Below, piece by piece: positions 2-23,488 of a stretch of DNA of 64,000 nucleotides. The notes below the pieces were generated by a model. That model searched no databases, was not told the DNA's origin, and was given only the letters and a program-made list of their open reading frames with translations. A program made the translations under genes and the position numbers. Position 1 is the stretch's first letter. Each line of letters starts with the position of its first letter. Origin of the DNA: an uncultured Thermoplasmata archaeon (lineage in GTDB: Archaea > Thermoplasmatota > Thermoplasmata > SG8-5); contig CAYHBA010000004.1 of assembly GCA_964354755.1 (NCBI GenBank), positions 12,644-76,643 on the forward strand, in the 5' to 3' direction.

Positions 2-1993
2 ACGGGCAGCTCAAGAGCCCTGATAAACAACCTGGACCTTAGGGTAACATCATCAAATGGGACTATGTACTACGGTAACAACGGCCTGTGGGACAACCTT
101 TACTCTGTTTCCGGAACCGGGGTGAACCACTGGTCAACTTCCGGTGGCCACCGCGACGACCTGAACAATGTCGAGAATGTGTTCATACAGACGCCACAGG
201 CCGGCATATGGACGATAGAGGTTTCTGGTAGGACCGGTGATGTGGCGCAAGGACCGCAGGACTTCAGTCTGGTGTCATCCGGGGCCATGTTTCCCATCCC
301 CTCAGAGGGAAGCATAGTGCTCGACTCCGAGCTGTACCCGAGAGAGGCCACAGTCGGCATGGAAGTGGTGGACAGGGACCTGAACACAGATCCCTTTACC
401 GCGCAGACTGTGAACGTTAACCTGAAGAGCATTGCCGAGCCTGCCGGCGAAACCACAATTCTCACCGAGACCGGCCCGAACACCTGCACATTCCAGGGGA
501 CGAAGAATATATCCGGCACCAACTCGGCCGGCGTTGTCTGGGTGAACGCGATGGACACAATCACAGCCACCTACGACGATGCGGATGATGGCACGGGCAA
601 TCCCGCGGTCGTAACGGACACTGCTGCTGTGGACGGGCTCGCGCCAGCTGCGCCGAGCGGTTTGACAGTGCAACACTGGGGCATGACTTCAGGCAACGAA
701 GTTCGGTTCATGAGGGGTATCGCCAGCGAGGCCAATGTCAACGGTCTCACCGCCTACCTTGCCGGAACCACGCAATCCACAACGGCGGCCAATGCTGGCA
801 ATCTCGGAAACAATGTCAACTTATATGCGGGCATCAGGGCGTGGGTGCGCCACTCTGGTGGTGCTGAGACTGAGTTAACAGCCGGCACGGCCGTCGCCCT
901 TGTCTACGGTAATGCCACGGGCACTTATTCGGCACTTTGGACCCCGCCCTTCACAGTCCTAGCACCCACAGATTCGGTCGTTGTCAGGTTCTATGTCAAC
1001 ACAGCCACCCCGCCGACCACTGTCCGGGCCACTTTCACGACCGAGCAGCTTGGGGCCACCCAGCTTGACGCAAACTTGTGGAACATGACATATTTCCTCA
1101 GGAAAGGCACTGTCGCGCAAGGGGGCTCGTCCCTGCTCTGGGGTACGACAGCATACAACACGAGGATATCCGGGTTCTCCTGGAAATCGACTGCGAACTA
1201 CCAGGACCATAACACACTGAACTGGACTCACAATGGCGCGGACGTTGACCATTATGTGATATACCGTTCGGAGGTAAATTCTGGGCCCTGGGACGAATCC
1301 CATGTCATAGACTCAGTCCCGGTCGGAACCAACACCTACACGGACTTCAACAGGGGCCTGGGCGACAGCATCATCTGGTGGTATGTCGTGCGGGCTGAGG
1401 ACGATATGGGCAACCGTGAAGCGAACATGAATTCAATACCTGAACCGGGCGCTGCACCGCCGTATGCTATCAATCTTGCCGGAAAAAGCGCCAACAGCTG
1501 GGTATTCGTATCCTTCCCGAGCGACATCACTGGCAATATACAGGACATACTGAACGACGCGGCTGCTGGCGACGGAGCCACAACATGGACGGTTGCCAAG
1601 TGGTTCAACAAACAGACACCATCTGACCCGTGGAAGACGTATAGGGTCGGAAGCACTGTCAACGACCTTGCGACAATATCCAGCACCATGGGCGTGTGGC
1701 TTTGGATAACGGCCAATGGCGGAGACCAAGCGCTCACGCTGAACGCTTATGTTGCACCATCCGCGACCGCGGTGGCCATCAATCTGTACACAGGCTGGAA
1801 CATGGTCGGATACCCCACCATGACGAGCAGAGCGGAATCAGCCACGCTGCCCGTACAAGCGGACTATGTGGCAGTGTGGCAGGCTGCAACGCCATACATA
1901 ACGCAGCATGCCAAGGGAGCCACACCGATGTCCCACGGAAACGCATACTGGGTGCATGTCACAGCAGACTGTGTGTGGACTGTGCAGCCATAA
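2..1993 (+). CDS. Secreted subtilisin-like (peptidase S8) multidomain protein, 5' end outside window; paralog of 2121..5804
   Basis: The frame is open from nt 2 (TGSSRALINNLDLRVTSSNGTMYYGNNGLW...). It is colinear without indels with the C-terminal ~663 codons of the next gene (constant offset 3811 nt). It contains a P-domain-like segment, a beta-sandwich module, an FN3 with a large insertion, and the shared 176-aa C-terminal domain. Confidence 0.85.
   Translation, partial: TGSSRALINNLDLRVTSSNGTMYYGNNGLWDNLYSVSGTGVNHWSTSGGHRDDLNNVENVFIQTPQAGIWTIEVSGRTGDVAQGPQDFSLVSSGAMFPIPSEGSIVLDSELYPREATVGMEVVDRDLNTDPFTAQTVNVNLKSIAEPAGETTILTETGPNTCTFQGTKNISGTNSAGVVWVNAMDTITATYDDADDGTGNPAVVTDTAAVDGLAPAAPSGLTVQHWGMTSGNEVRFMRGIASEANVNGLTAYLAGTTQSTTAANAGNLGNNVNLYAGIRAWVRHSGGAETELTAGTAVALVYGNATGTYSALWTPPFTVLAPTDSVVVRFYVNTATPPTTVRATFTTEQLGATQLDANLWNMTYFLRKGTVAQGGSSLLWGTTAYNTRISGFSWKSTANYQDHNTLNWTHNGADVDHYVIYRSEVNSGPWDESHVIDSVPVGTNTYTDFNRGLGDSIIWWYVVRAEDDMGNREANMNSIPEPGAAPPYAINLAGKSANSWVFVSFPSDITGNIQDILNDAAAGDGATTWTVAKWFNKQTPSDPWKTYRVGSTVNDLATISSTMGVWLWITANGGDQALTLNAYVAPSATAVAINLYTGWNMVGYPTMTSRAESATLPVQADYVAVWQAATPYITQHAKGATPMSHGNAYWVHVTADCVWTVQP
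296..1993 (+). repeat. 1698-nt 3' cassette, copy 1 (direct repeat)
   Basis: From codons IPSEG to the stop. Same length and no indels relative to 4107..5804 and 8317..10014. Confidence 0.85.
1463..1990 (+). other. Shared C-terminal domain (CTD), copy 1, 176 aa
   Basis: YAINLAGKSANSWVFVSFP...TGWNMVGYP...[18 protein letters not shown]-stop. Confidence 0.85.
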
Positions 1994-2120
1994 AACACGA
2001 AACAGAATGGGGGGCCGATCGACTCCCCTCCTTTTCCAATTTTTCATTATTCTTTTGAATAGGTATTAATACTCATTAAGCAATACGTAAATGTCACAAA
2101 TAAGTGTTTAGCACGGATGC

Positions 2121-5100
2121 ATGGCACCGTTTTACATAATGTGGCGCAAGGAGCCGGGTGTTTGTATGTTCGGAGAAACAAGGGCGAAATATTGTGGGTT
2201 GGCAGTGTTGATTGTAGCGGCAGTTTTGTTGGTTCCAACGACTTTGACATTTGCGAGACAAACAGCTGTTGAAAATACCACAGAAAATTATTACTTAGTG
2301 ACATTTTCCGAGCTTCCGTCCGACTGCCTAAGGCTCGAATTGGCAGAGGCTTTTGACATGGAGTTCTTGGAGTACCACCAGGACAATACCTACATGGTCA
2401 AGGCGCCTGTTGACCGCATCGATCAGATTTCGGCAATGCCGCAGGTTGCGGGCGTGGTACAATATGCTCCAGCCCAGAAGATTGCGTCCGAGTTGCATCA
2501 TCTTACGGGCCCAGTGTCCCTACGCGTGGACCTGCACTCGGGCAACTATGTTCAGGCCGTCGCCCAAATCCTGGAGGGCTTGGGCGCCAGCGTGACCAAG
2601 ACAAACTCGGTTGTTGTCGATTACCTGTACTGCGACGTCGACGCATCAGCCATACCGGAGATTGCCGACATAGTCCAAGTCAAGTCCATCTATCCCCAGG
2701 GCGAGAAGTCGACCTTCATGAACCTGATATCCTCCAATCCATACATGGGGAGCGACACACCCCAGGCGAACGCATTCCTGGGCAGCGGCATACTGGCAGA
2801 GGTTCAGGACAATGGCATCGACCGCCTTCATATAGACCTGCAGAACGTTGATTATACGGACGGAAGTGTCGTCGCAGATGCCCACGGGACATGCACGAGC
2901 GGCGAGATGTTCGGCACCGGCACGGGAGACTCGGATGCCCTGGGAAGCTTGCCCCAGGCAGTTGGGGCATTCGCAGACTGGGGAACGGGAAATGCCGTTT
3001 CGATTGCAAACCTATGGAACGGCGACTTCAACGAAGGCTCAGCCGGCATGAACGGCATCGTGCAGACCAATTCATGGTATGCCGGTGGCACGATGGACGG
3101 CGGCTACGCCCCGGTATCGAACGAGATTGACAACGCTGCGCGGGACTATCCCCATGTGCTGAACCATTGGGCCATCGGTAACAGCAACCAGGGAACCCAA
3201 CTTGGCGGCATGAGCTGGGACAGCTCGGGCAAGAACAGCATCGCGGTCGGGGCGATATTCCACGGCGATACGGCGGCCCTAAACGATGACGAATGGCATG
3301 ACGCGGGCGCGGGCATGACTCCGTCTAGGGGTCCGTGCGCCGACGGAAGGCAGCACCCAGACATGTGCGGGCCGTTCGACTGGATATATACTGTGGACTG
3401 GAGCGGAGCCAACGGGTATGCACCCGGTAACTATTACGATGATTTCGGAGGCACGAGCGGCGCCACCCCCAGCGTTGCAGGCTGTTCAGGCCTTACTTAC
3501 GAGATGTACCGTGAAAACTTCTTCGGAAACAATCCCGGCGGCGCATGGCCGTACTCGTGCACGGTAAAGGCATTGATGATTGCGGACGCCCACCAATACA
3601 TGATAGGCATCAACTCCATTGACAGAAATGTGGAGGGCTGGGGAACTCCGGACATGGAGAACATGTACAACCTGGGGGCCGAATACCATATGATAGACGA
3701 ATACCCTCAGGCCTTGTCCTCGGGCGGCATCTGGACCCGCGCCGTGTATAGCGACGGCGTCCACCCGTTGAAGATCACGCTCTGCTGGATAGATCCGGCC
3801 GCGCCCGGGACCACAGGCCACGCGAGAGCCCTCATTAACAACCTGGACCTGAAGGTGACGTCACCAGGCGGCACTGTCTACTATGGCAATAACGGCCTCT
3901 GGGGCAACCTTGACTCCACTTCGGGCACAGGAGTCAACCACTGGTCGTTGTCAAGCAGCTACAGAGACGACCTGAACAATCTCGAGAACGTGTTCATGCA
4001 GACGCCGCAGCTCGGCATATGGACGATAGAAGTCTCAGGCAGAACTGGCGATGTCGCTCAGGGCCCGCAAGACTTCAGTCTGGTGTCATCCGGAGCAATG
4101 GAACCGATCCCCTCCCAGGGAACAATGACGCTCGACTCCGAGCTGTACCCGAGGGAAGCTACCGTCTCAATGGAGGTTGTGGACAGGGACCTGAACACTG
4201 ATCCCTTTTCCGCGCAGACCGTCAACATTAACCTGAAGAGCGTAGCCGAGCCTGCCGGCGAAACTACCATTCTCACCGAGACAGGCCCGAACACCTGCAT
4301 ATTCCAAGGGACCGGAACCATATCTGGCACCAATTCAGCCGGCGTTGTCTGGGTGAATGTGGTGGACACGATCACAGCCACCTACAACGATGCAGATGAC
4401 GGCACGGGCAGTCCAGCCATCGTGACTGACACTGCCGCGGTGGACGGTGCCGCACCCACTGCACCAAGCGGCCTAACCGTGCAACACTGGGGCCTTGTCA
4501 CAGGCAACGAGGTTCGGTTCATGAGGGGCGTAGCCAGCGAAGCCAATGTCAACGGCCTCACCGCCTACCTTGCCGGAACCGCCCAATCCACGACATCGGC
4601 CAATGCTGGCAATCTCGGAAACAATGTCAACCTGTATGCGGGCATCAGGGCATGGGTGCGCCACTCTGGCGGGACAGAGACAGAGTTAACCGCCGGTACG
4701 GCCGCGGCTGTTGTCTACGGCAATGGCACGGGCACTTATTCGTCCCTTTGGACCCCGCCCTTCACAATACTGCAACCCACAGATTCGGTCGTTGTCAGGT
4801 TCTACGTCAACACTGCCACACCGCCGACCACTGTCCGGGCGACTTTCACGACCGAGCAGCTTGGGGCCACCCAGCTTGACGCAAATTTGTGGAACGTGAC
4901 ATATTTCCTTAGGAAAGCCGGCATTGCGCAGGGCGGCTCGTCCCTGGTCTGGGGGACGACATCATATGACACGAGGATTTCCGGTTTCTCCTGGAAATCG
5001 GCTGCGAACTACCAGGACCACAACACGCTCAACTGGACGCACACGGGCGCGGACGTTGACCATTATGTGATATACCGCTCGGAGATGAGTTCCGGACCCT

Positions 5101-5804
5101 GGGACGAATCCCATGTCATAGACACAGTCCCGGTCGGAACCAACACCTACACGGACTTCAACAGGGGCCTGGGCGACACCACCATCTGGTGGTATGTCGT
5201 GCGCGCAGAGGACGGGATAGGTAACCGCGAGTCCAACACCATCTCGGTGCCCGAACCCGGCGCCGCGCCGCCGTATGCCATAAACCTTGCCGGCAAAAGC
5301 GCCAACAGCTGGGTATTCGTATCCTTCCCGTCCGCGACCAGCGGCAATATCCAGACCATACTGAACGACGCCACCGTCGGCGACGGGCTCACGACCTGGA
5401 CCGTAGCCAAGTGGTTCAACATACAGACGCCTTCAGATCCGTGGAAGACCTACAGGGTCGGAAGCACTGTCAACGACCTCACGACGATATCCAGCACCAT
5501 GGGCGTGTGGCTCTGGATAACGGCCAACGGCGGGGACCAAGCGCTCACGCTGAACGCTTATGCGGCACCGGCCGCGACCCCGGTGACCATCAATCTGCGC
5601 ACAGGCTGGAACATGGTCGGATACCCGAGCATGACAAGCAGGTCAGAATCCGCCACCCTGCCGGCAGCGGCAGACTTCGTCGCAACCTGGCAGGCTGCAA
5701 CGCCATACATAACACAGCATGCAAAGGGAGCAAGCATGATGTCCCACGGAAACGCATACTGGGTGCATGTCACGGCAGACTGCACATGGTCTGTAAACCC
5801 GTAA
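2121..5804 (+). CDS. Secreted subtilisin-like serine protease (peptidase S8) with 565-aa shared tail
   Basis: 1227-aa ORF. Hydrophobic signal/anchor GLAVLIVAAVLLVPTTLTFA. Subtilase triad motifs AEVQDNGID (Asp), HGTCTSGEMFG (His) and GGTSGATPSVAGCSG (Ser). The true start may be ATG 2166 (AAGGAG at 2148-2153). Confidence 0.9.
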   Translation: MAPFYIMWRKEPGVCMFGETRAKYCGLAVLIVAAVLLVPTTLTFARQTAVENTTENYYLVTFSELPSDCLRLELAEAFDMEFLEYHQDNTYMVKAPVDRIDQISAMPQVAGVVQYAPAQKIASELHHLTGPVSLRVDLHSGNYVQAVAQILEGLGASVTKTNSVVVDYLYCDVDASAIPEIADIVQVKSIYPQGEKSTFMNLISSNPYMGSDTPQANAFLGSGILAEVQDNGIDRLHIDLQNVDYTDGSVVADAHGTCTSGEMFGTGTGDSDALGSLPQAVGAFADWGTGNAVSIANLWNGDFNEGSAGMNGIVQTNSWYAGGTMDGGYAPVSNEIDNAARDYPHVLNHWAIGNSNQGTQLGGMSWDSSGKNSIAVGAIFHGDTAALNDDEWHDAGAGMTPSRGPCADGRQHPDMCGPFDWIYTVDWSGANGYAPGNYYDDFGGTSGATPSVAGCSGLTYEMYRENFFGNNPGGAWPYSCTVKALMIADAHQYMIGINSIDRNVEGWGTPDMENMYNLGAEYHMIDEYPQALSSGGIWTRAVYSDGVHPLKITLCWIDPAAPGTTGHARALINNLDLKVTSPGGTVYYGNNGLWGNLDSTSGTGVNHWSLSSSYRDDLNNLENVFMQTPQLGIWTIEVSGRTGDVAQGPQDFSLVSSGAMEPIPSQGTMTLDSELYPREATVSMEVVDRDLNTDPFSAQTVNINLKSVAEPAGETTILTETGPNTCIFQGTGTISGTNSAGVVWVNVVDTITATYNDADDGTGSPAIVTDTAAVDGAAPTAPSGLTVQHWGLVTGNEVRFMRGVASEANVNGLTAYLAGTAQSTTSANAGNLGNNVNLYAGIRAWVRHSGGTETELTAGTAAAVVYGNGTGTYSSLWTPPFTILQPTDSVVVRFYVNTATPPTTVRATFTTEQLGATQLDANLWNVTYFLRKAGIAQGGSSLVWGTTSYDTRISGFSWKSAANYQDHNTLNWTHTGADVDHYVIYRSEMSSGPWDESHVIDTVPVGTNTYTDFNRGLGDTTIWWYVVRAEDGIGNRESNTISVPEPGAAPPYAINLAGKSANSWVFVSFPSATSGNIQTILNDATVGDGLTTWTVAKWFNIQTPSDPWKTYRVGSTVNDLTTISSTMGVWLWITANGGDQALTLNAYAAPAATPVTINLRTGWNMVGYPSMTSRSESATLPAAADFVATWQAATPYITQHAKGASMMSHGNAYWVHVTADCTWSVNP
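4107..5804 (+). repeat. 1698-nt 3' cassette, copy 2
   Basis: See copy 1. Contains a 319-bp tract (5011..5329) identical to 9221..9539. Confidence 0.85.
5274..5801 (+). other. Shared CTD, copy 2, 176 aa
   Basis: Same module, ends [16 protein letters not shown]-stop. Confidence 0.85.
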
Positions 5805-5815
5805 CAATGAATAAT

Positions 5816-5850
5816 GCCGGCGTTCCTACGAACGCCGGCCCATTTGATTT
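5816..5850 (+). terminator. Hairpin plus T-rich tract after S8 gene
   Basis: GCCGGCGTT-cctacg-AACGCCGGC (9-bp stem), then CCATTTGATTTC. Confidence 0.5.
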
Positions 5851-5935
5851 CAATCTTCAATATCATGAAATACGTTATTATTAATTAACCTTGAACAGCA
5901 GGTTATAAATACTATGAAAATGGTAATTCACATAC

Positions 5936-5945
5936 ATTTAAATAT
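5936..5945 (+). promoter_or_regulatory. TATA-box-like element upstream of C11 gene
   Basis: ATTTAAATAT about 47 nt upstream of ATG 5992. Confidence 0.4.
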
Positions 5946-5991
5946 TTCGCGCTCATTGATTATCCAGATGATTTCAAAAGGAGATTGAACC

Positions 5992-8900
5992 ATGAAATCT
6001 AAAGTTTTGAAGAACGTGGCAGTGGTGGTATTGGCAGTTCTGATGGCCCTGCCAGTCGGAATGGCAGTGGGCAGCAATGAACCGGTAACTGATGCCGGAA
6101 TGGGCGATTCGCCCGGGTTTGCTTTCGGGGAAAGGGCCGTTGCAAGCCTCGGCGACTCGAATTACGAGGTCTGGGTCGAGGGTCCGCAGCATGATGCAAG
6201 GCTGATGTTCGCGATGAGCTCCGGCTCAGGCGGGTGGACCGGGCCAAAACAGATTACTGGCTCGGAATTCAACCCGATGAGCGTTCAGATGGTGGCGGGA
6301 AGCCAGACATTGCATGTTGTATGGCAGGACGGCCTGACCAAACTTCTGCGAACAGGATACATGACAATTAATGCGGGCGGCAAGTGCTCTGAACCGACAG
6401 TATTCCAGGGCGAGAAACCATCGTTGGCCATATGCGGCGAGACTGTTGCATTTTCATATATATATTTTGGAACTACGAATGTCCAAGTGAGCCATGACTC
6501 GGGCATCGGATTTACATCTTACACCATTTTTGACGGACTATTCAGCCAGAACAACCGGTTATCTTTCAGTGAGGGCAAACTCGAGGCCGTTGCCAGCGCA
6601 GGCATAAGAGACCAGGAAACCGGCCAACTCTCCTCAAGGGGATTATACTATACTTCCTTTGATGACCTATCATGGTCTATGCCTAGCATGATCGCAGAAG
6701 CAGGCCCGGTCAACGACCTATCATTTACCGAAGGCACTCTGACCTGGACCGAGACTTCGGATTTCACAAAGAACTCGTATGAAATGACAGAAAATGGTCT
6801 GGGAATTTTCACCGACAAAGTTCTTGTTTCTTCTGAGAACATCCAGAAAACGCCTGCGGGAACGCAGCAGCCTCTGCCCAGGCTTCCCCCGAAGAAATGG
6901 ACATACATCGGCTATGTGGACGCCGATAACAGCCTTAACAGCTGCGGTCTGGAGGACCTTAATGAAATGGAACAGATTGGTTCTAATGCGGACCTCAACA
7001 TCATAGCCCTTTTTGACGGGAGCTCCAGCGGAGATTCGAAAGCCTATTATATCCAGCAGGATGCAAACATGGGCGCCATCACCTCGCCCCAGATACCGTT
7101 GAACACCATCAACTCCTCCTGGGGCATGGAGCTAAACATGGGCGCTCCTCAAACATCAATCGATTTCGTGAATTATATTTATGTGAATTATCCAGCCGAA
7201 CACTACATGTGGGACATGTGGGACCACGGTGGCAGCTGGCTTTACGGCATGTGCTCCGACGATACGAATGGCGATGACTATACTATGCTCGAAGTGCGCA
7301 CGATATACGAAACATTAAGGATAGACAACAGCAAACTAAAACTGTTCGACGTGGCCGGCTATGACGAATGCCTGATGTCGGATGTGGAGGTCGACTATGA
7401 TGAAATCCCGTTCATCGATTACATCTGCAACTCTGAGGACAGCATCCCCGGGGACGGCTGGGAGTACAACATGGTGCTCGGCCCGTTGGCGGCGAATCCT
7501 GACATGGGCGGCGAGCGAGCAGCCTGGCTAATATTCGATGCATACGTCGATTATTATGGGACGAACAGCGGCCCCACAATGTCAATAATCAACTCGACAG
7601 TGTTCTTCTACGAGTTGATTCCTGCGATTAACAACCTCGCCCAGAAAGGCATTCATAACATTACGGCAAACAGGGCTGTGCTGCAATCGGCGGCCAATAA
7701 TGCAAAATCATGGCAGGGTTATACTTGGAACAAGGACCTAATAGATTTCTGCAACAGGGCCGTTGCCGCACTCCCGGCCAACGAGATAAAGACAGCCGCG
7801 CAGGGCGTGGTAACGGCAGGAGAGTCCAACCCGCCTGGCACACAGTACGGGGGGCCTTCATGGCAGCATGACAGGGCAATCCTCATCCACAACCAGAATT
7901 CCGGAGAGGAGGGCATCACGATATATGTGGCCAGTCCGCCTTATAACACCCTGTACAATACCCTGACATTCACCGAGAACAAGTGGGACGAGTTCTACAA
8001 GGTGCTGTGGGGCAGCGACGCCAGCGATCCGAACATCGAACCCGCCGTCATCATAACAAGCCCAGCGAATGGCGGTTACGTGACCATTGACGCATATGTG
8101 GTCATAAACGGGACAGCAAGCGACGCAGATGGCTCCGTCCAAGGTGTGGAGGTCTCAATGGACACAGAGCACTGGGAGCCGGCCACAGGCACGACCTCGT
8201 GGTCGTTCGGCTGGGACACTACAGGTTGGTCATTCGGCCCGCACTGGATTCAGGCGCGTTCATATGACGGCCAGGATTACAGCGCCCCTTACCAGATACA
8301 GGTCGAGATGGTTGATATTCCCTCCGAGGGAACAATTGAGCTCGACTCCGAGCTGTACCAACAAGAGGCCACGGTCGCCATGGAAGTGGTGGACAGAGAC
8401 CTGAACACAGATCCCTTGACCGCGCAGACCGTCAACATTAACCTGAAGAGCGTAGCCGAGCCTGCCGGCGAAACTACCATTCTCACCGAGACAGGCCCGA
8501 ACACCTGCATGTTCCAAGGGGCCGGAACCATATCCGGAACAAACTCAGCCGGCGTTGTCTGGGTGAACGCGATGGACACCATAACCGCCACCTACAACGA
8601 TGCAGATGACGGCACGGGCAGTCCCGCGGTCGTAACGGACACTGCCGCTGTGGACGGGCTCGCGCCGGCTGCGCCGAGCGGTCTGACAGTGGACCACTGG
8701 GGCATGATATCCAGCAACGAAGTCAGGTTCATGAGGGGTATCGCCAGCGAAGCCAATGTCAACGGCCTCACCGCCTACCTTGCCGGAACCGCCCAATCCA
8801 CAACGGTGGCCAATGCTGGCAATCTCGGAAACAATGTCAACTTGTATGCGGGCATCAGGGTGTGGGTGCGCCACTCCGGCGGCACCGAGACAGAGTTAAC

Positions 8901-10014: not shown

Positions 10015-10028
10015 ACACGAATCAGAAT

Positions 10029-10057: not shown

Positions 10058-10109
10058 AATTTCCTGCGGGCCGGTCGCTAATGCAGTAACCATGGATTCC
10101 AAATGAGCA

Positions 10110-13100: not shown

Positions 13101-13463
13101 TGGAAGACCTACAGGGTCGGCAGCACGACGAATGACCTGGCCACAATCACCAACCTGATGGGTGTGTGGCTGTGGATAACCGCGAACGGCGGGGACCAGA
13201 TGCTGACCGTCGGTGTCAACGGCGACTACCCTGCAACAGCAGTGAACATCAACCTGTACACGGGCTGGAACATTGTCGGATACCCCACTGCAACGAGCAG
13301 GGCAGAATCCGCAACGCTGCCGGCAGCAGCGGACTTTGTAGCAGTCTGGCAGGCAGCAACACCGTACATAACGCAGCATGCCAAGGGCGCGGCCATGATG
13401 TCCCACGGAAACGCCTACTGGGTACATGTGACAGCTGATTGTTTATGGGTTGTAAACCCGTAA
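10158..13463 (+). CDS. Secreted papain-like cysteine peptidase (family C1) with FN3-like and unknown modules plus shared C-terminal domain
   Basis: 1101-aa ORF with an N-terminal signal-like hydrophobic segment. C1 motifs [19 protein letters not shown] (Cys), [11 protein letters not shown] (His) and [21 protein letters not shown] (Asn-Ser-Trp). Confidence 0.9.
12933..13460 (+). other. Shared CTD, copy 4, 176 aa
   Basis: [19 protein letters not shown]...[16 protein letters not shown]-stop. Confidence 0.85.
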
Positions 13464-13666
13464 TCCACATCCAAAGATAGCAATAACTGGCGCTTCATCG
13501 AGCGCCAGCGTTACGGAGGACGAGCATGTGCACCGGAGGTTTTTCATTTACTGAATAATTCTTTTTGCCGAAGGTGCGCCCCGCAGGCGAATAGGTCGCC
13601 GAGGCAAAGACGAATCCGCAGATTCGTCTGAGAGCGCAGTCCGAAGTTCAAAAAGAAATACTCGCA
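13464..13666 (+). repeat. Structured post-stop repeat element, copy A (MITE-like, unclassified)
   Basis: 203 bp starting right after the stop of the C1 peptidase gene, with 4 mismatches and no indels versus 23284..23486. Perfect hairpins CTGGCGCT-n6-AGCGCCAG (13487..13508) and GACGAATC-CGCA-GATTCGTC (13609..13628). Outer inverted repeat TTCTTTTTG...CAAAAAGAA. Confidence 0.8.
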
Positions 13667-13668
13667 TA

Positions 13669-13716
13669 CTTTGGGTGCATGTGACGGCAGATTGTACTTG
13701 GGTTGTTAATCCTTAA
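13669..13716 (+). pseudogene. Orphan copy of a CTD gene 3' end ([15 protein letters not shown]-stop) downstream of element A
   Basis: In-frame 16-codon fragment. It differs from the live 3' end (13419..13463) at 9 of 44 aligned nt, yet only one amino acid changes. Confidence 0.6.
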
Positions 13717-13779
13717 TTAGAACTGCTCGTATAAAATTCGGATTGGATATGCAATAATGAAAGATATATCCTTTAGGTG

Positions 13780-13793
13780 TAATTTAAATACAT
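13780..13793 (+). promoter_or_regulatory. TATA-box-like element upstream of C13 gene
   Basis: TAATTTAAATACAT about 110 nt upstream of ATG 13903. Confidence 0.4.
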
Positions 13794-13902
13794 TTAAGTA
13801 TACCATAACCTATTATATTTCTCAAGATGCGCAGTTGCATGAATTTACATTGCGTCATGTTTCGTGCGTATTTTGTGAGTCATTCAGAGGAGCGGTTGAA
13901 AA

Positions 13903-16851: not shown

Positions 16852-16864
16852 AACGCAAAAGAAT

Positions 16865-16910
16865 GGGGCGCTGAGAGGCGCCCCTCCCTTCAATTTTGTT
16901 TATTTTCTTT
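16865..16910 (+). terminator. Hairpin plus T-rich tract after C13 gene
   Basis: GGGGCGC-tgagag-GCGCCCC, then TCCCTTCAATTTTGTTTATTTTCTTT. Confidence 0.5.
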
Positions 16911-16940
16911 ACTCCACAAATTTTTCGAAGCTCCAAAACA

Positions 16941-16948
16941 TTAAAATA
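16941..16948 (+). promoter_or_regulatory. TATA-box-like element upstream of metallopeptidase gene
   Basis: TTAAAATA 36-43 nt upstream of ATG 16984. Confidence 0.4.
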
Positions 16949-16983
16949 GACAACCCTCCATGTTTAAGTTAAGGAGTTCCGAC

Positions 16984-19900
16984 ATGAAGATATTTACTTT
17001 GCAGGCATTTGTTTGGATACTGATTTTAAACCTCATGATTTCCGGTATTATCTTCAATTTTGGTGATTCCCAGGCGGGCTCTGCCGACCTGGAAACAAAG
17101 AGCCAGGACGAATCACTCGCCGACGCCGATCCATGCCCGACTGCGGCATCAGAATCTCCAGCAGTTCCGCAACTGAGGCATATCGGGACATATCCGATCG
17201 CATCCCCGGATGCCAATCTGGATAATCCCAACGACCCGTATTATACCGAATCCCTATACTTCATTAACAATCAAGCTTCGGGCGCTCCAGAAGAAAGTCC
17301 TCCATTGAAAACCGAAAACACGCAATCCCGATTGGCCGGACCTCCTGCCACATCAGATACTGGCAGCGTTGGGTATGAACCTAGGGCGATATACAGCGTT
17401 CAGGGGATTTTCAGATATCAGGACAGGGAGCAGGATGAGACTGGATTCACCGGAGTAAATCCATTATTGCCAATCAGGTTCGCGGATGTCGAAGTATATG
17501 ACGTCAACACACAGCAGGTATTGGCCTCGGGCCACACTGACTTCAACGGTTATTTTTCAATCATGGTCAACGATGCTGTGATTCGGGACATTGCGATTCG
17601 GGCCATAACCACTTCAAATGACCATCCCGGCCTGACAAATCATTCCGTGACACTGACTCCCGGTGACGGCGGTGCCCCCTACACGATAAGTACCCCAACA
17701 TATTTCAATCATCCATTGACAGACATTGATTTCACCGGAACGCCAGTCAATGCAATGGCCGGCGGTGCAGGGAACGCATTCCACCTCTTCGATTGCCAGG
17801 AGAACGTTGAAAGGTACGCTGAAAACCTCACTAGCGCCCAGCCCAGGCACAATCTCACAATATACTGGAGAGCCGGAGCGTCCTATGGCAAGGAGTATGA
17901 CACTAATGGACACATTTATCTGATGGGTTCAAGCGCGGATGACGATTCATACGACGACACTGTGGTTTACCATGAAATGGGGCATTACCTCGCTGGCTGC
18001 TATTCGAAAGATGCAGGATATTACGGCGCTCATAGTCTGAATGGCAACTACGACATCCGGCTTTCATATACCGAGGGCCTGGGCAGTTATTTCATGGGGG
18101 CAGTCAGAGATTATCTGGGTGTGGTTCAGCCCCTTATCTACATCGAGACGAACGGCGTGAGCCTGAACTGGTACGGATACTCGATTAGCTACGACACAGA
18201 CACGCCCTCGGGATATTCCAACCAGCCCCGCCCGTACTCCATGTGCACCGCTGAAAACGAGGCTACGGTCGGTCATGCGCTATTCGACATCGTGGACAGC
18301 TCCGCATCTGACGATGGCACTCCGGGAGTCGACGACGATTTGTTCGACCTGTCAGGATTGCAGGGCGACCAGCTTGTCTGGGACGTTTTGGTTTCCATCG
18401 ACGAAAATGCAACATCATTCACAAAGAAGATCACCATGGAGACCTTCATCGATACTTTCAGGACTATGTACCCTGTATATAATGCGCAACTTACACAGGT
18501 ACTGGCGGACAGCGGTATAGAATACCTCGACGATGCCTATGAGAATGATGACACTTATCTCCAAGCGCAGCCCAAACTTATCGGCAGTGAATATCATCAT
18601 ACGTATTTTGGGGCGGGCGACCAGGACTGGTCGTCATATGGTTTAACCGTAGGAACAGACTATGTTTTCAAGACGATTGACCTGTACGATTGGGCGGACA
18701 CCAAACTTGAGCTTTATGATACTGATGGAATTTCACTGTTAGATTCAAACGACAACCGGGACGACGGAACCAAAGAATCTCTAATAAGATTCTTAGCCCC
18801 AGCAAACGGCCAGTATTACATCAAATCCACAAGAACACCGGAAACGCCGATGCCCACCGGCGAATATGGCAAATATAATCTAACATCATACATAGTTTTC
18901 AATCCCGTGGTTGTTTCCATTGTCCCAAACACAGGGCCAGTTCCTGGGGGGACCACTGTATGTATCACAGGCGAGAATTTCACTGCCAGCGGATCAATCC
19001 TCTTTGGTGTGTATGAGGCGACAGGCGCAATTCTGGCAGGCAATGTCTACACTGTGACCACGCCAGCTAATGTGCCTGGTCCAGTTGACGTGGTTGTGAA
19101 TAATCCTCCTACACAGGATGGCATCATTCCAAGCGGCAAAATGGTAAATGGTTTCACTTACACAGGCACACCGCTGGCCCCGATTGTCAGAGAGGTGTCT
19201 CCGCCCTTTGGGTCGTCAATAACCACGAATGATGTAACAGTCGAGGGCGATTATTTCATGAGTGGAGCCAGCTTGTATTTTGACGACTTGGTGATTATTA
19301 CACCATCCGTAATCAATCCGAAGATGATAACAGCGACTTTACAGATTTTACCCGCCGACATGTATGATGTGAACGTCACAAACCCGGACATGCAATATGA
19401 TGTGCTTGCCAACAGTTATGAGAGCACGCTTCAAATGTTCAACTCGACTACAGTCATTTTCGACTATTACAGCCCACTCACGACAACGATCTTTGTTCCG
19501 GACGATTTCATTATTTCGGACCTCTATGTTTTCGTTAATGTTTCTTATCCCGGGGACGAGCCCGTGGTGGAACTCGAGAGCCCCATTGGCACCACAGCAA
19601 AAGTATTTGATGAAATTCAAGTTGTTGAAGATGATGAAAACTGGCGTACGCAAATGAGTTCCTGGTTCGGGTACGCCGAAGCCCCTTCGGAGGGGCTTTA
19701 CCAGTACAAGGGAGAACACACCCAGGGAGAGTGGACCCTGCGGCTGACCAGCCCAACAAGCTGGGATAGCACCCTGCACTCATGGGGCATCTGTTTCCTG
19801 CAATACAGCCATAGGAACATCTCCAGAATCCTTTACACGCCTTGCGAGTACAGGAATTACCTTCTGGCTGTGGACGGAACCACGGGCGAGCATCTCTATC

Positions 19901-22900
19901 GGGCCAAGCTCGAAACCTGGCCCGGAAGGGTCACTGTTTCGGCTGACCAGACTAAAGTTTACTCCAGTACTTTTAGCTATTATAATGCCACAACAGGCGG
20001 TTACACGGATTCTTTATTGAATTGTTTCCAGAGTTTCACCGGCAAGAAGATCCAATCGATAATTCTCGAAGGCAAGATGGGCCGTCAGGCACTGGCGACG
20101 ATACCCAACAGCAATAAAATAGTGGCAATTACATCTCACAATCTCTACGTAATAAATACCGACACCCAGGCAATGGAAGACTACATTGTATTACCCTCAG
20201 TATACAATACATTGGAGCTCGGTGTAGCTGTTTCGCCCGACGGCCTTACTGCATACTGCACCCCGAACACCGGAACCCTGGAATATGTTCAGATGGTGGA
20301 TTTATCGACAATGACATTATCCGGCCAGATATCCACTCCAGGTAAGATTCCATACGATGTTGAAATCTCGAATGACGGTGCGACAGGTGTTATTGGCTAT
20401 ACCACTAATACAATGGACGTTTTTGACACCTCGACCGATACAATATTCGACACAATCAATCTCCCCTCCTGGGCCGCTTGGATAAGCCTTACTCCCGATG
20501 CCACAAAGGCTTTTTACACGACTTATCAATGGTATGCTGGATTTGGTACAGCTAACCTGACCACGCATGCAACCCACAATGTAATGGACGATCCCGAATC
20601 CACAACAATTGGGGTCAAAATCTCCAATGATTACAGGTCATATGTCGTTGATTGGTACAGGGGGAAGATATTGATTTACGATGCCAGGACCGAGTTGAAA
20701 ATCGACGAATTCGATGTGATGGACGGCATAAGCCTGTACCCATCCGGCATAGACATTGTGGATATGGTTGGTGCTCCATCATTATCGGCGAATGTGGTCA
20801 TGGGAGGGAACATCAGTTTATCCTGGTCGGCCCCATCAAGCCCCGGCACCCCAATATCCTATTATAAAATCTATCGCGGCACTTCATCCGGGCGGGAGGT
20901 GTTCTACAGGAACACAGCCTCTACTGGTTTCCTCGACTACAACATCACTAATGGCCAGTATTTCTATAGGGTTGGCGCTGTGAATGGGGCTGGAGAGGGC
21001 GGCCTTTCAAACGAGGCACAGGCAGTCTCGATGGCCCCAACAGTGACTGTTGACCACCCGACAGCACCCGATACAATAGAATCCGGCAATGTGAACATCT
21101 TCTGGGCAATTACTGACAATGACCCGCTGCCCAATGGCGGGAATGTCGTTAACATATCTTACTCGGACGATTGCGGGGCAAGCTGGATTCCGCTGGCAAC
21201 AAATGCCGGCGCGAACTCGGACCCGTTTACATGGAATGCCGGCTCACTGCCTGACGGAGTGAGTTACATAATAAAAATCACCGCATACGATGCCACCGGG
21301 CAGAAAGGAATAGGCTATTCGGACAACCCCTTTTCACTGGACAATGTTCCTGACGACAGATGGCATTTCCAAACCCAGTTCAGCGGTCCGCTCAAGGATC
21401 TTGACATGAAGCCCGTCGAGCTTAGCCAGCAGGTCATTCCAATTCCTGTGGATGGGGCAGACGAGTACGTAATCGGTAAATGGGAAGGGAGAGCATATCC
21501 TTCGGGAAGGGACATCTCCGGGCAATGGAACTTCAGCGTCTGGGGTTTTGTGTCCATCGAAGGCCTTTGCAGTGCACACCTCAAAGCGAAAATATACACG
21601 TCCAGCAATCCGACGCCACTTTACACGACAGTTTCCGATAATGAGGATATCAATGAATTTTCCTCCGCATATCACGAATATTGCTGGCAGGATTTCGGTG
21701 TATCTGGCATGACAATTCCTGGGGATCATGTCCAGGTCGAACTGGTGTTGGACGCGTCCTTCGGGACACCCACGGATTTCGTTTACAACAACACGGACAG
21801 CGACATTCCCGGCAACGGCACGGTAACCGGAACACATGTGGCCACCCAAGTATCCGATGATGTTTATCAAACAATACAAGAGATACCGGCAGGCAAGACA
21901 ATCTTAATTGCCGAGACCTTTGACGGTTCCTTCCCACCTGCGGGATGGGCCAAATACACAGGCAATCCGGCCACAACATGGCAGACCTCCGGGGGAAGCC
22001 CGAGCGGAGACCCTCCCGACGCATATATATACCGCTGTTCCACGGACGGACTCAGTTCTGTCTGGAGGCTCTATGCAGGACCGATTGACACGAGCCAGGT
22101 GACTTCATTGACGCTAGAATGGGCCTGCAATTTCAACCAATGGAACGGCGCGGGTTGTTTCGGGAAAGTCCAGACAAGCACTGACGGAATAACTTGGCAT
22201 GACACCTCATGGATTAAGCCCACAGATGGCCCCGATGTCATAGGGCCTCAGAGCCTGTTGATTGAAACAGGCGACGAAGGCTCGGGCACGTTCTATTTCA
22301 GTTTGACATTGGAAGGAGAGCCTTACCACATGAACTCCTGGGCGGTGGATGATGTCAATCTTACCGGACTGACCACCTCCATTCTGGACCACAAATGGCC
22401 AGTGATAGTCGAAGGCAGCATGACAGAAGTCCTGTTCGGAATAGAAGCCCATGTCTCATCTGGAGAAGCTGTTTCTGTATATTACTCAGCAACAGGCTCA
22501 GGGCCAGTCGGTGGTGTGGGCTGGTGCCACATGCTCGAAGTGATAAAAACATCAGACGACGACTCGCTCCAGACCTATGTGTTGCCAGTTAGCACTTCCG
22601 GTACGATATGCATCGGCGCCAAGGACATCGACCGTGCAGCCGGCGACATCACCCTGGACACATTCTATATCGACAGGATGTTCGTCAGGTCTGAATTCGC
22701 CAGCCCAATTTTTAATTTCGGATACGACTCCAGCCAGACACAATCCTATGTCGAACCGCCTGCATCGCAATCAATCTTCAGCATTCCGGTGCTGCCCGGC
22801 TGGAATCTAATCTCGTTCCCGATTCAGGCATCGGGCTCACCGCTGGACGTACTGAACGATATGGGCGGCGACACAATCTGGGACATTGTCAAACGGTTCG

Positions 22901-23283
22901 ACCCGCTAAGCCCCGCAGACCCATGGAAGACTTATCGCGTCGGTTCTACAGTTAATGACCTATTGAACATCGACAACACCATGGGTCTCTGGGTACACAT
23001 CACCAATGCCGGAACCGACAGCCTTCTGACTGTGCCGGGTGCAGAGCCAGGCATTACGGTCATCAGCCTTCGCACAGGCTGGAACCTTGTCAGTTATGCA
23101 TCATTGACCCCGAGAACCGCAAACGTCGCCCTTTCAGGCACATCCACGGATATGATAGCCTATTATCAAGCAGCCTCGCCCTACATCACGGACACTGCAG
23201 ACCTGGAGACCGTGACCATGGAGGCCGGAAAGGCGTACTGGGTGCATGTGACGGCTGATTGTTTGTGGATTGTAAACCCGTAA
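16984..23283 (+). CDS. Giant secreted zinc metallopeptidase (HExxH) with CarboxypepD_reg-like, PPC-like, IPT/TIG, P-domain-like, beta-propeller, FN3, MAM-like and shared C-terminal domains
   Basis: The ORF is open from 16960. ATG 16984 has AAGGAG 7 nt upstream and a TTAAAATA box at 16941-16948. Motifs seen: VVYHEMGHYLAG (HExxH); YENDDTYLQAQ...DQDW (pre-peptidase C-terminal-like); VSIVPNTGPVPGGTTVCITGENF (IPT/TIG); GEHTQGEWTLRLTS (P-domain-like); LYVINTDT/AVSPDGLTAY (YVTN-type propeller). Confidence 0.85.
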   Translation: MKIFTLQAFVWILILNLMISGIIFNFGDSQAGSADLETKSQDESLADADPCPTAASESPAVPQLRHIGTYPIASPDANLDNPNDPYYTESLYFINNQASGAPEESPPLKTENTQSRLAGPPATSDTGSVGYEPRAIYSVQGIFRYQDREQDETGFTGVNPLLPIRFADVEVYDVNTQQVLASGHTDFNGYFSIMVNDAVIRDIAIRAITTSNDHPGLTNHSVTLTPGDGGAPYTISTPTYFNHPLTDIDFTGTPVNAMAGGAGNAFHLFDCQENVERYAENLTSAQPRHNLTIYWRAGASYGKEYDTNGHIYLMGSSADDDSYDDTVVYHEMGHYLAGCYSKDAGYYGAHSLNGNYDIRLSYTEGLGSYFMGAVRDYLGVVQPLIYIETNGVSLNWYGYSISYDTDTPSGYSNQPRPYSMCTAENEATVGHALFDIVDSSASDDGTPGVDDDLFDLSGLQGDQLVWDVLVSIDENATSFTKKITMETFIDTFRTMYPVYNAQLTQVLADSGIEYLDDAYENDDTYLQAQPKLIGSEYHHTYFGAGDQDWSSYGLTVGTDYVFKTIDLYDWADTKLELYDTDGISLLDSNDNRDDGTKESLIRFLAPANGQYYIKSTRTPETPMPTGEYGKYNLTSYIVFNPVVVSIVPNTGPVPGGTTVCITGENFTASGSILFGVYEATGAILAGNVYTVTTPANVPGPVDVVVNNPPTQDGIIPSGKMVNGFTYTGTPLAPIVREVSPPFGSSITTNDVTVEGDYFMSGASLYFDDLVIITPSVINPKMITATLQILPADMYDVNVTNPDMQYDVLANSYESTLQMFNSTTVIFDYYSPLTTTIFVPDDFIISDLYVFVNVSYPGDEPVVELESPIGTTAKVFDEIQVVEDDENWRTQMSSWFGYAEAPSEGLYQYKGEHTQGEWTLRLTSPTSWDSTLHSWGICFLQYSHRNISRILYTPCEYRNYLLAVDGTTGEHLYRAKLETWPGRVTVSADQTKVYSSTFSYYNATTGGYTDSLLNCFQSFTGKKIQSIILEGKMGRQALATIPNSNKIVAITSHNLYVINTDTQAMEDYIVLPSVYNTLELGVAVSPDGLTAYCTPNTGTLEYVQMVDLSTMTLSGQISTPGKIPYDVEISNDGATGVIGYTTNTMDVFDTSTDTIFDTINLPSWAAWISLTPDATKAFYTTYQWYAGFGTANLTTHATHNVMDDPESTTIGVKISNDYRSYVVDWYRGKILIYDARTELKIDEFDVMDGISLYPSGIDIVDMVGAPSLSANVVMGGNISLSWSAPSSPGTPISYYKIYRGTSSGREVFYRNTASTGFLDYNITNGQYFYRVGAVNGAGEGGLSNEAQAVSMAPTVTVDHPTAPDTIESGNVNIFWAITDNDPLPNGGNVVNISYSDDCGASWIPLATNAGANSDPFTWNAGSLPDGVSYIIKITAYDATGQKGIGYSDNPFSLDNVPDDRWHFQTQFSGPLKDLDMKPVELSQQVIPIPVDGADEYVIGKWEGRAYPSGRDISGQWNFSVWGFVSIEGLCSAHLKAKIYTSSNPTPLYTTVSDNEDINEFSSAYHEYCWQDFGVSGMTIPGDHVQVELVLDASFGTPTDFVYNNTDSDIPGNGTVTGTHVATQVSDDVYQTIQEIPAGKTILIAETFDGSFPPAGWAKYTGNPATTWQTSGGSPSGDPPDAYIYRCSTDGLSSVWRLYAGPIDTSQVTSLTLEWACNFNQWNGAGCFGKVQTSTDGITWHDTSWIKPTDGPDVIGPQSLLIETGDEGSGTFYFSLTLEGEPYHMNSWAVDDVNLTGLTTSILDHKWPVIVEGSMTEVLFGIEAHVSSGEAVSVYYSATGSGPVGGVGWCHMLEVIKTSDDDSLQTYVLPVSTSGTICIGAKDIDRAAGDITLDTFYIDRMFVRSEFASPIFNFGYDSSQTQSYVEPPASQSIFSIPVLPGWNLISFPIQASGSPLDVLNDMGGDTIWDIVKRFDPLSPADPWKTYRVGSTVNDLLNIDNTMGLWVHITNAGTDSLLTVPGAEPGITVISLRTGWNLVSYASLTPRTANVALSGTSTDMIAYYQAASPYITDTADLETVTMEAGKAYWVHVTADCLWIVNP
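22777..23280 (+). other. Shared CTD, copy 6 (divergent), 168 aa
   Basis: FSIPVLPGWNLISFP...[15 protein letters not shown]...TGWNLVSYA...[17 protein letters not shown]-stop. Confidence 0.8.
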
Positions 23284-23486: not shown

Positions 23487-23488
23487 TA

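What the first reader, a model, noticed from the sequence alone, without database searches (positions are those of the whole stretch)
2..23283. Six tandem secreted peptidases from five catalytic families all end in the same unassigned ~170-aa C-terminal domain
**What the sequence shows**
- Six consecutive same-strand genes carry different catalytic heads: S8 (Asp/His/Ser motifs), S8, C11 (WDHGGSW / DECLM), C1 (GGTCWTHG / NHAIAIIGW / KNSWG), C13-like (TDHGSG / EPCFSGG) and HEMGH.
- All six terminate in one module of 168-176 aa: 1463..1990, 5274..5801, 9484..10011, 12933..13460, 16321..16848 and 22777..23280.
- The same module closes a protein of unknown function (31164..31664, minus strand) and sits internally in the deiminase homolog (38250..38765, minus strand).
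- Landmarks in order: (S/G)W.(F/L/M)(V/I)S(F/Y)P, then D(I/V)LND, then TW.VAKW(F/Y), then [10 protein letters not shown].(V/T)NDL, then MG(V/L)W(L/V).IT, then TGWN(M/L/I)VGYP, then [13 protein letters not shown]-stop.
- Six of the seven terminal copies end in Pro.
- The module has no hydrophobic helix, so it is not a PGF-CTERM/archaeosortase-type signal. I cannot assign it to any family from memory.
- The module is itself a duplication. Each half starts with a GW/SW-x-hydrophobic-V-(S/G)-(F/Y)-P strand and ends with G-x-(W/Y)-(L/W)-(W/V)-(I/H)-(T/V).

**Inference**
- It may be a common anchoring, sorting or assembly handle for an extracellular proteolytic arsenal. Analogies are the T9SS CTD on gingipains/PPAD, or the duplicated dockerin on cellulosomal enzymes.
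- The internal copy in the deiminase argues for a binding module rather than a strictly C-terminal cleaved signal.
- Extracellular C11/C25/C1-type peptidases have been reported from sediment archaea that degrade detrital protein. This island fits that lifestyle, but the lineage is not determined here.
Basis: partly seen in the sequence, partly recalled or inferred. Interest (0 to 1): 0.85.

Follow-up and report, generated by a model that had tools for sequence, protein, structure and literature searches.

The report
Unannotated shared end-domain on archaeal exoenzymes
Eight secreted proteins in this archaeal (Thermoplasmata) gene island carry the same ~170-residue all-beta domain, which matches no known family or solved fold, belongs to a very large unannotated superfamily, and most likely tethers exported enzymes to a surface.

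Summary
Eight copies of a 167-176-aa module sit at the stated coordinates, seven at the extreme C terminus and one internal.

**What it is**
- It is a tandem duplication of an ~85-aa unit (hhalign 97%).
- The AlphaFold2 model is very confident (pLDDT 97).
- It has no Pfam, NCBIfam or PDB-sequence match and no Foldseek match in PDB or BFVD.

**How widespread**
- An exhaustive profile search finds 17,356 protein clusters, 1,954 of them at E<=1e-30.
- The closest relatives are all Thermoplasmatota MAGs, with many copies per genome.
- A diverged branch occurs in bacteria and in DPANN archaea.

**What carries it**
- It is not protease-specific. Cargo includes NosD/beta-helix, BNR, M14, S8, C25, GH18, GH32, cyclophilin and adhesin-like repeats.
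- About 90% of copies are the last domain.
- Exceptions are tandem or fivefold copies, stand-alone secreted copies, copies followed by a linker and a membrane helix, and a membrane-bound transcription factor.

These exceptions argue for an autonomous binding domain, not a cleaved sorting signal. No conserved partner gene was found.

The best guess, which is inferred and not shown, is a non-covalent tether to the producer's own surface. Targeting of substrate or particles is a close rival.

The parts
2..1993 (+). g1, 5'-truncated paralog of the S8 gene g2. The module is at 1463-1990.
   Evidence: 86% identical to g2 residues 565-1227. HMM hit E 8e-69.
2121..5804 (+). g2, signal peptide + S8 subtilase (KP-43-like) + stalk. 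The module is at 5274-5801.
   Evidence: PDB 5fax/1wmd E 1e-27. Motifs. Module.
5992..10014 (+). g3, signal peptide + C11 clostripain + Big_7 + the same 568-aa stalk as g1/g2. The module is at 9484-10011.
   Evidence: Pfam C11 E 2.5e-38. 87-89% identity over 568 aa with g1/g2.
10158..13463 (+). g4, signal peptide + C1 papain-like + Lectin_like. The module is at 12933-13460.
   Evidence: Pfam. Module.
13903..16851 (+). g5, signal peptide + C13 legumain-like. The module is at 16321-16848.
   Evidence: Pfam C13 E 5.9e-10. Module.
16960..23283 (+). g6, 2107-aa protein with an HEMGH motif, TIG, fn3 and P-domain-like repeats. The module is at 22777-23280.
   Evidence: no peptidase family assigned. 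Module.
31161..33164 (-). g7, signal peptide + ~270-aa cargo domain of unknown function shared with the two upstream genes. The module is at 31164-31664 and ends in Trp.
37005..39473 (-). g8, signal peptide + N-terminal domain + internal module (38250-38765, residues 237-408) + PAD_porph deiminase (residues 440-710) + C-terminal Ig-like part. It has no membrane helix.
   Evidence: Pfam PAD_porph E 4.5e-26. Module. Orthologs in L031 and L050 also have the module N-terminal to the rest of the protein.
12933..13460 (+). Representative module copy, made of two homologous halves (about residues 1-98 and 99-176 of the module).
   Evidence: hhalign of the halves gives 97%. The AF2 model of copy 1 has pLDDT 97, with six strands plus short helices per half.

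Best explanation
The ~170-aa unit is an autonomously folding, all-beta, Trp-rich extracytoplasmic domain. It arose by tandem duplication of an ~85-aa unit. That unit has a GWN-h-h-S/G-F/Y-P strand, a short helix, and a G-x-G/A-Y-W-V-H-V strand.

It is the Thermoplasmatota branch of a large cross-domain superfamily that is not annotated. Sec-exported enzymes and adhesin-like proteins carry it, nearly always as the last domain.

Most likely it is a non-catalytic binding module that holds the exported protein non-covalently on a solid surface. The most probable surface is the producer's own cell envelope (a surface glycan, lipoglycan or surface protein). In that role it does the job that a C-terminal membrane helix does for neighbouring secreted proteins. 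It is not a cleaved secretion signal.

**Shown:** the domain, its duplication, its strong C-terminal bias, signal peptides on the carriers, very diverse cargo, and the absence of any known family or fold match.

**Inferred:** that it binds something, and what it binds.
For: - **Same module on unrelated heads.** The module is 72-86% identical on S8, C11, C1 and C13 heads. In relatives it sits on M14, S8, C25, M6, GH18, GH32, amidase, NosD/beta-helix, BNR, FG-GAP, LTD and cyclophilin proteins. It therefore does not track any one substrate class, as a generic retention device would not.
- **Position.** It is the last domain in 118/118 short homologs with a complete module end, 117/132 representatives and 92/100 genome ORFs.
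- **Signal peptides.** Carriers have N-terminal signal peptides.
- **Alternative ends in the window.** Secreted proteins here end in the module (8), in a C-terminal membrane helix plus basic tail (3: the 26030-28018 minus-strand gene, 27503-30172 and 58663-60888), or in a second tandem repeat (2). Module and membrane anchor co-occur in only 2 of 68 signal-peptide carriers near related loci.
- **Placement next to the membrane.** Where a membrane helix is present, the module lies just before a ~60-aa Ser/Thr/Gly/Pro linker and the helix, which is the membrane-proximal position.
- **Expansion.** There are many copies per genome in Thermoplasmatota MAGs.
- **Not a signal peptide-like tag.** The module has no hydrophobic helix, is acidic, and has 7-10 Trp.
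Against: - **No experiment or ligand.** Nothing here shows binding.
- **Distribution.** The superfamily also occurs in bacteria with quite different envelopes. That fits a generic ligand better than a lineage-specific envelope component.
- **Redundant anchors.** Some proteins have both the module and a membrane anchor.
- **Stand-alone and multi-copy forms.** Stand-alone secreted copies exist (P0018, P0089, P0278, P0280). One protein has five interspersed copies (P0123). These look like lectin or adhesin behaviour.
- **Sensor-like protein.** One membrane-bound wHTH regulator has two extracytoplasmic copies (P0124). That resembles sensors that detect external polymers.
- **No partner.** No partner gene recurs in the neighbourhoods.
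- **Unknown envelope.** The cell envelope of these uncultured archaea has not been described.
Confidence: 0.38

Rival explanations
1. A substrate- or particle-targeting module that works like a CBM. It would bind an abundant insoluble environmental polymer or particle surface (a polysaccharide, cell-wall debris or detrital matrix). That would concentrate the exoenzyme on its food source and not on the cell.
For: - Cross-domain distribution, including bacteria.
- Fusion partners in the bacterial branch include CBM6, cohesin, TSP3 and RHS.
- Stand-alone and multi-copy forms exist.
- P0124 has two modules outside a membrane-bound transcription factor. This recalls, from my own knowledge, the RsgI anti-sigma factors of Clostridium thermocellum, which sense biomass with CBMs.
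- The two-fold repeat is rich in Trp and Asn/Asp, which is typical of lectins.
Against: - The same module is attached to enzymes for unrelated substrates (peptidases, GH18, GH32, deiminase, cyclophilin).
- It sits at the membrane-proximal end in anchored variants, where a substrate-binding module would be poorly placed.
- No sequence or fold similarity to any CBM or lectin.
Confidence: 0.3
2. An assembly handle. Modules would associate with each other or with a scaffold, so that soluble enzymes ride on the minority of module-bearing proteins that also have a membrane anchor. This would be a cohesin/dockerin-like or S-layer-like canopy.
For: - A minority of carriers combine the module with a linker and a membrane helix, on the same kinds of cargo.
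- Natural tandem modules exist (P0124, P0121).
- The pseudo-two-fold architecture is like that of the duplicated dockerin.
Against:
- No dedicated scaffold or partner gene recurs near the carriers.
- Anchored variants are rare: about 4% of representatives and 2% of genome ORFs.
Confidence: 0.12
3. A C-terminal secretion or sorting signal that is recognised by dedicated machinery and then removed, in the manner of the T9SS CTD.
For: - Strong C-terminal bias and a conserved last residue, Trp or Pro.
- Cargo overlaps the Porphyromonas T9SS set (C25 gingipain-like, PAD_porph).
Against: - Internal, N-terminal-side, tandem and fivefold copies exist, as do copies followed by more domains or by a membrane helix.
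- Carriers already have Sec signal peptides.
- No machinery genes are nearby.
- No match to CTD models or structures.
- At 170 aa the module is large for a signal.
Confidence: 0.05
4. A passive structural end-cap or folding aid for long beta-rich stalks, with no specific ligand.
For: - It follows Ig-like, fn3, Big and PKD stalk domains.
- In g1-g3 it travels with a 568-aa stalk.
Against: - Very strong conservation, with 37 invariant columns among diverged copies and conserved Trp, Asn and Asp.
- Huge expansion of the family, stand-alone copies, and use in a sensor-type protein.
Confidence: 0.1

Closest known systems
T9SS C-terminal domain (CTD) of Bacteroidota cargo such as gingipains and PPAD
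   Same: A shared C-terminal beta domain on many otherwise unrelated secreted hydrolases. The cargo here includes C25-like peptidases and a Porphyromonas-type arginine deiminase. The domain ends exactly at the protein's C terminus.
   Different: - No sequence or fold match.
- About twice the size, and internally duplicated.
- Occurs internally, in tandem and stand-alone.
- The host is an archaeon, and no T9SS genes were seen in the window.
Dockerin (duplicated module) of cellulosomal enzymes
   Same: A C-terminal, internally duplicated, non-catalytic module shared by a whole set of exoenzymes.
   Different: - About 170 aa and all-beta, against about 70 aa with Ca-binding helical repeats.
- No Pfam dockerin match.
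- No cohesin partner in the window or in related archaeal loci.
Non-covalent cell-surface binding domains: the WxL domain of Enterococcus/Lactobacillus, GW modules of Listeria, SLH, and the pseudomurein-binding repeat of Methanobacteriales (recalled from my own knowledge)
   Same: - C-terminal, repeated, Trp-containing modules that keep many different secreted proteins on the cell surface.
- As I recall it, the WxL domain is also about 160-190 aa and has a conserved Trp-containing motif close to its C terminus.
   Different: - None of their Pfam models matches at E<=1.
- No PDB fold match.
- The target polymers of those domains (peptidoglycan, teichoic acids, pseudomurein) are not known to exist in Thermoplasmatota.
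Carbohydrate-binding modules and bacterial pre-peptidase C-terminal (PPC) or PKD domains on secreted peptidases
   Same: Non-catalytic beta domains appended to the C termini of exoenzymes, sometimes in several copies.
   Different: - No profile or structural similarity.
- Cargo is not restricted to one substrate class.

Membership tests
T9SS CTD (Por_Secre_tail / TIGR04183) | Sequence match to the CTD profile | tested here: not met
   No Pfam hit at E<=1 for module copies or for 89 family members. No NCBIfam hit at E<=0.1.
T9SS CTD (Por_Secre_tail / TIGR04183) | Ig-like beta-sandwich of about 70-100 aa, as in solved CTD structures | tested here: not met
   The model has pLDDT 97. No Foldseek PDB match at E<=0.001; the best is E 0.12 with TM <=0.25. 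The module is 167-176 aa and internally duplicated.
T9SS CTD (Por_Secre_tail / TIGR04183) | Strictly C-terminal position together with T9SS machinery in the host | tested here: not met
   Internal, tandem and fivefold copies exist. The host is archaeal (RLI/ABCE1 gene, synteny to Thermoplasmata). No Por genes were found among the window ORFs scanned. The whole genome was not available.
Dockerin | Two Ca-binding repeats of about 22 aa (Pfam Dockerin_1) and a cohesin partner | tested here: not met
   No Pfam hit. No cohesin in the window or among recurrent neighbours.
PGF-CTERM / archaeosortase-type signal | C-terminal hydrophobic helix with a signature motif and a basic tail | tested here: not met
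   The maximum 19-residue hydropathy of every copy is <=1.27. No NCBIfam sorting-signal model hit.
WxL, GW (SH3_8), SLH, LysM and PMBR surface-binding domains | Match to the respective Pfam profile | tested here: not met
   None appears among the hits at E<=1 for 89 members or for the four window copies scanned alone.
Carbohydrate-binding modules / lectins | Profile or fold similarity to a CBM or lectin family | tested here: not met
   The only recurrent weak Pfam hit is DUF1737, in 10 of 89 members with best E 0.008.
Carbohydrate-binding modules / lectins | Demonstrated glycan binding | not testable with these tools
   This needs recombinant protein and binding assays.
Unnamed GWNL[IV]S-P ... 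G-x-G-Y-W-[VI] double-unit superfamily (defined here) | Profile-profile homology between the window copies and the diverged, partly bacterial branch | tested here: met
   hhalign of A1 against A7 gives 97.1% probability, E 5e-11, over 148 columns. The exhaustive HMM search finds 17,356 clusters.

The most novel reading that the evidence does not exclude
The module is a previously undescribed fold. It would be the main device by which sediment Thermoplasmatota, and in diverged form many bacteria, keep their exoenzymes and adhesins attached. Soluble cargo would dock through the module onto the cell surface or onto the minority of module-bearing proteins that also have a membrane anchor. This would be an archaeal functional counterpart of T9SS-CTD, SLH or cohesin-dockerin systems, with no homology to any of them.
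Probability: 0.2. Interest if true: 0.8.

Novelty: new variant of a known kind. Interest (0 to 1): 0.62.

Why it matters
Sediment Thermoplasmata such as SG8-5 (Ca. Proteinoplasmatales) have been shown to degrade detrital protein (PMC9123169). How they keep costly extracellular enzymes from diffusing away is not known.

This one domain marks a large part of their secretome. It is absent from Pfam and NCBIfam despite about 17,000 sequence clusters, and it has a confidently predicted structure with no known structural relative.

Defining the family would have three uses:
- It would improve annotation of thousands of "hypothetical" surface proteins.
- It would give a simple marker for the exported-enzyme repertoire of uncultured archaea.
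- It would provide a concrete, expressible 170-aa domain for testing whether these enzymes are cell-bound or substrate-bound.

Tried and rejected
**Family and fold searches that found nothing**
- Pfam, NCBIfam, a PDB sequence profile, Foldseek against PDB and Foldseek against BFVD gave no family or fold.
- The viral contig scan found no relative.
- Literature searches by motif strings and by topic found no description of the domain. The SG8-5 paper does not mention a C-terminal domain.

**Partner search**
- Clustering all ORFs >=150 aa in 76 related loci gave no plausible partner. It returned only shadow ORFs of the module itself, one syntenic block (TctA, LTD/PLD, EF-Tu-like, RLI), TPR/STAND ATPases and HdrA-like genes.

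**Ideas tested and dropped**
- N-glycosylation sequons are absent from all eight window copies. They are not depleted across the family, however: 1.54 per 100 aa in the module against 2.05 per 100 aa in the rest.
- I tested whether the different tandem repeat that ends the two genes upstream of g7 is a distant relative of the module. hhalign to module half 2 gave 57% probability over 39 columns, which is inconclusive. Its AF2 model was unusable at pLDDT 49, so I ran no fold search on it.
- A transmembrane beta-barrel or OMP-like reading of the conserved terminal Trp was rejected. The strands are only 3-9 residues long and the domain is acidic and soluble-like.
- The "Cloacimonetes" label on P0123 was not taken at face value. 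Its contig carries an Mbh/Mrp hydrogenase cluster. Bacterial occurrence rests instead on L078 (PorZ, beta-lactamase) and L079 (Amidase_3, LicD).

Full report
**1. Observation**

The window holds six same-strand genes: 2-1993, 2121-5804, 5992-10014, 10158-13463, 13903-16851 and 16960-23283. Each ends in the module at the stated coordinates. Two further copies lie on the minus strand, at 31164-31664 (terminal) and 38250-38765 (internal).

- The eight copies align with 37 invariant columns. Copies 2-5 are 76-86% identical to copy 1, and copies 6-8 are 43-50% identical.
- An HMM scan of all six frames finds exactly eight full copies.
- Six of the seven terminal copies end in Pro.
- No copy has a hydrophobic helix (maximum 19-mer hydropathy <=1.27). 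All are acidic (pI 4.0-6.3) with 7-10 Trp.
- The two halves are homologous: hhalign 97%, E 1e-10.

Catalytic heads:
- C11, C1, C13 and PAD_porph are found by Pfam.
- g2 is an S8 subtilase by PDB homology, E 1e-27.
- g6 has HEMGH but no assignable family.

- g1 has lost its catalytic part to the window edge. It is a paralog of g2, 86% identical over 663 aa.
- g1, g2 and g3 share 568 C-terminal residues at 86-89% identity. g5 shares 269 aa, and g4 shares only the 181 aa around the module. Different heads therefore sit on a recently exchanged common stalk.
- g7 most likely starts at 33164.

**2. What it is not**

- No Pfam hit at E<=1 for the module copies or for 89 family members. The only recurrent weak hit is DUF1737, in 10 of 89 members with best E 0.008.
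- No NCBIfam hit.
- No PDB sequence-profile hit.
- AlphaFold2 with an 89-sequence alignment gives pLDDT 97 and pTM 0.89. Each half has six strands and short helices.
- Foldseek finds nothing at E<=0.001 in the PDB (best E 0.12, TM <=0.25) or in BFVD.

For a model this confident, that points to a fold with no solved relative.

**3. Distribution**

- A word-indexed search gave 136 relatives, mostly fragments. The named ones were mostly Thermoplasmata MAGs, including Ca. Proteinoplasmatales SG8-5.
- The exhaustive profile search of 1.84 billion representatives gave 17,356 clusters at E<=1e-3, 6,755 at <=1e-10 and 1,954 at <=1e-30.
- The species-genome scan confirmed >=543 stretches with a single peptide pattern. 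The best 80 are all Thermoplasmatota MAGs, with 4-10 listed loci in each of several genomes.
- The window is syntenic over 24.4-47.7 kb with a contig of Methanomassiliicoccales archaeon UBA280, at 75-84% nucleotide identity. It also encodes RLI/ABCE1.
- A diverged branch was seeded with the five copies of P0123. It is homologous to the window copies (hhalign 97.1%, E 5e-11) and includes bacterial proteins. The source labels are Kapabacteria, Proteobacteria and Woesearchaeota.
- Two of its contigs have clearly bacterial neighbours: PorZ and beta-lactamase on one, Amidase_3 and LicD on the other.
- Pfam does not cover that branch either.

**4. Architecture rules**

- The module is the last domain in 118/118 short homologs with a complete module end, 117/132 representatives and 92/100 genome ORFs. 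The last residue is usually Trp or Pro.
- Cargo among 64 representatives: NosD/beta-helix (26), BNR (8), PKD, LTD, FG-GAP, DUF11, lectin-like, C1, C11 and cyclophilin.
- Cargo among 49 closer genome ORFs: M14 (6), S8 (4), M6/InhA, C11, C25, PAD (2), GH18, GH32, amidase, NosD (7) and BNR.

Exceptions to the C-terminal rule:
- The module is followed by a linker of about 60 aa rich in Ser/Thr/Gly/Pro, then a membrane helix and a basic tail. The cargo is of the same kinds.
- The module is followed by further domains that look CARDB-like by eye. Pfam CARDB was found in 4 of the 49 genome ORFs.
- Two to five copies occur in one protein.
- Stand-alone proteins consist of a signal peptide plus the module, in archaea and bacteria.
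- P0124 has a signal peptide, two modules, PKD, a membrane helix and a cytoplasmic wHTH. It is a membrane-bound regulator.
- The deiminase has its copy N-terminal to the catalytic domain. The module is also near the N terminus in its L031 and L050 orthologs.

**5. Context**

- No gene family recurs next to carriers in 76 loci, apart from one syntenic block and unrelated families.
- Other secreted proteins in the window end in a C-terminal membrane helix. These are the PKD protein, the LTD/PLD/PKD protein and the ice-binding-like/Big_5 protein.
- Near related loci, module and terminal helix rarely coincide: 2 of 68 signal-peptide carriers.

**6. Mechanism**

The exceptions rule out a strictly terminal, cleaved sorting tag and show an autonomous domain. 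Three things point to a non-catalytic binding or tethering function:
- a strongly conserved two-fold repeat rich in Trp, Asn and Asp;
- attachment to enzymes of unrelated specificity;
- multi-copy and stand-alone forms.

I favour retention on the producer's own surface (0.38), for these reasons:
- the module is indifferent to cargo;
- it alternates with membrane anchors;
- it is membrane-proximal when an anchor is present.

Substrate or particle targeting (0.30) is nearly as good. It is favoured by the cross-domain distribution and by the sensor-like P0124. An assembly handle (0.12), a passive structural cap (0.10) and a cleaved signal (0.05) follow. All of this is inference; no tool here reveals a ligand.

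**7. Comparison and novelty**

In function it resembles the T9SS CTD, dockerin, WxL/GW/SLH and CBM-type appendages. It fails every membership test that could be run (see the membership table).

The concept, a shared C-terminal domain on exoproteins, is known. The family and apparently the fold are not. I therefore rate it a new variant of a known kind.

Literature searches found no description of it.

Noticed in passing
window 13464-13672 and 23286-23492, with flanking 45-nt repeats at 13419-13463/13672-13716 and 23239-23283/23492-23536; partial copy at 45508-45605: - A hairpin-rich non-coding element of about 209 nt lies directly after the stop codons of g4 and g6. The two copies are 98.6% identical.
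- Similarity between the two loci begins about 58 nt before the stop, although the two modules are only about 52% identical in protein.
- Each element is followed by a 45-nt duplicate of the module's 3' end with its own stop codon ([30 protein letters not shown]).
- It looks like a small mobile element that targets the conserved end of the module ORF. It would bring a replacement end and displace the native one.
- No Rfam match.
   Followed up: partly
window 33161-34894 (-) and 34891-36942 (-): - The two genes upstream of g7 share g7's ~270-aa N-terminal domain of unknown function.
- They end in a different tandem repeat of 2 x ~105 aa (..KTNIMWITIP..GxGIYLSITSxFxW..PALITPVVP*).
- In this small cargo family of 15 proteins, five members carry the module and five others end in this repeat. 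The repeat therefore looks like an alternative to the module in the same position.
- Homology to the module is inconclusive: hhalign 57%, and the AF2 model has pLDDT 49.
- The whole 31161-36942 operon is absent from the syntenic UBA280 contig.
   Followed up: partly
window 2-10014: The S8 genes g1 and g2 and the C11 gene g3 share a 568-aa C-terminal stalk at 86-89% identity. This implies recent recombination or gene conversion that swaps catalytic heads on a common stalk within the tandem array.
   Followed up: partly
window 26030-28018 (-), 27503-30172 (+), 58663-60888 (+): Three other secreted proteins end in a C-terminal membrane helix plus basic tail instead of the module. They are a PKD protein, an LTD+PLD+PKD protein and an ice-binding-like+Big_5 protein. 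No NCBIfam sorting-signal model matches the two tails that were scanned (27503-30172 and 58663-60888).
   Followed up: partly
P0124 (862 aa, metagenome; 19-kb contig): Its architecture is signal peptide + two tandem modules + PKD + membrane helix + cytoplasmic HVO_0163-type/MarR wHTH. This is a membrane-bound one-component regulator that uses the module as its extracytoplasmic part.
   Followed up: partly
L078 650-6500: A bacterial contig with PorZ and beta-lactamase genes carries a run of small genes of 171-321 aa next to each other. Three of them (198, 198 and 321 aa) match P0278, P0280 and P0272 in length. Those three proteins lie on a 39,691-bp contig and each consists of a signal peptide plus the diverged double unit.
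   Followed up: no
window 2121-5804: Pfam (including Peptidase_S8) reports no family for g2 at E<0.01. Yet phmmer finds KP-43-like subtilases in the PDB at E 1e-27, so this is a divergent S8.
   Followed up: no
L077 (contig JAIPGP010000042.1, labelled Candidatus Cloacimonetes): The 3424-aa protein with five module copies lies beside an Mbh/Mrp-type membrane hydrogenase cluster. The taxonomic label of this MAG contig may deserve checking.
   Followed up: no
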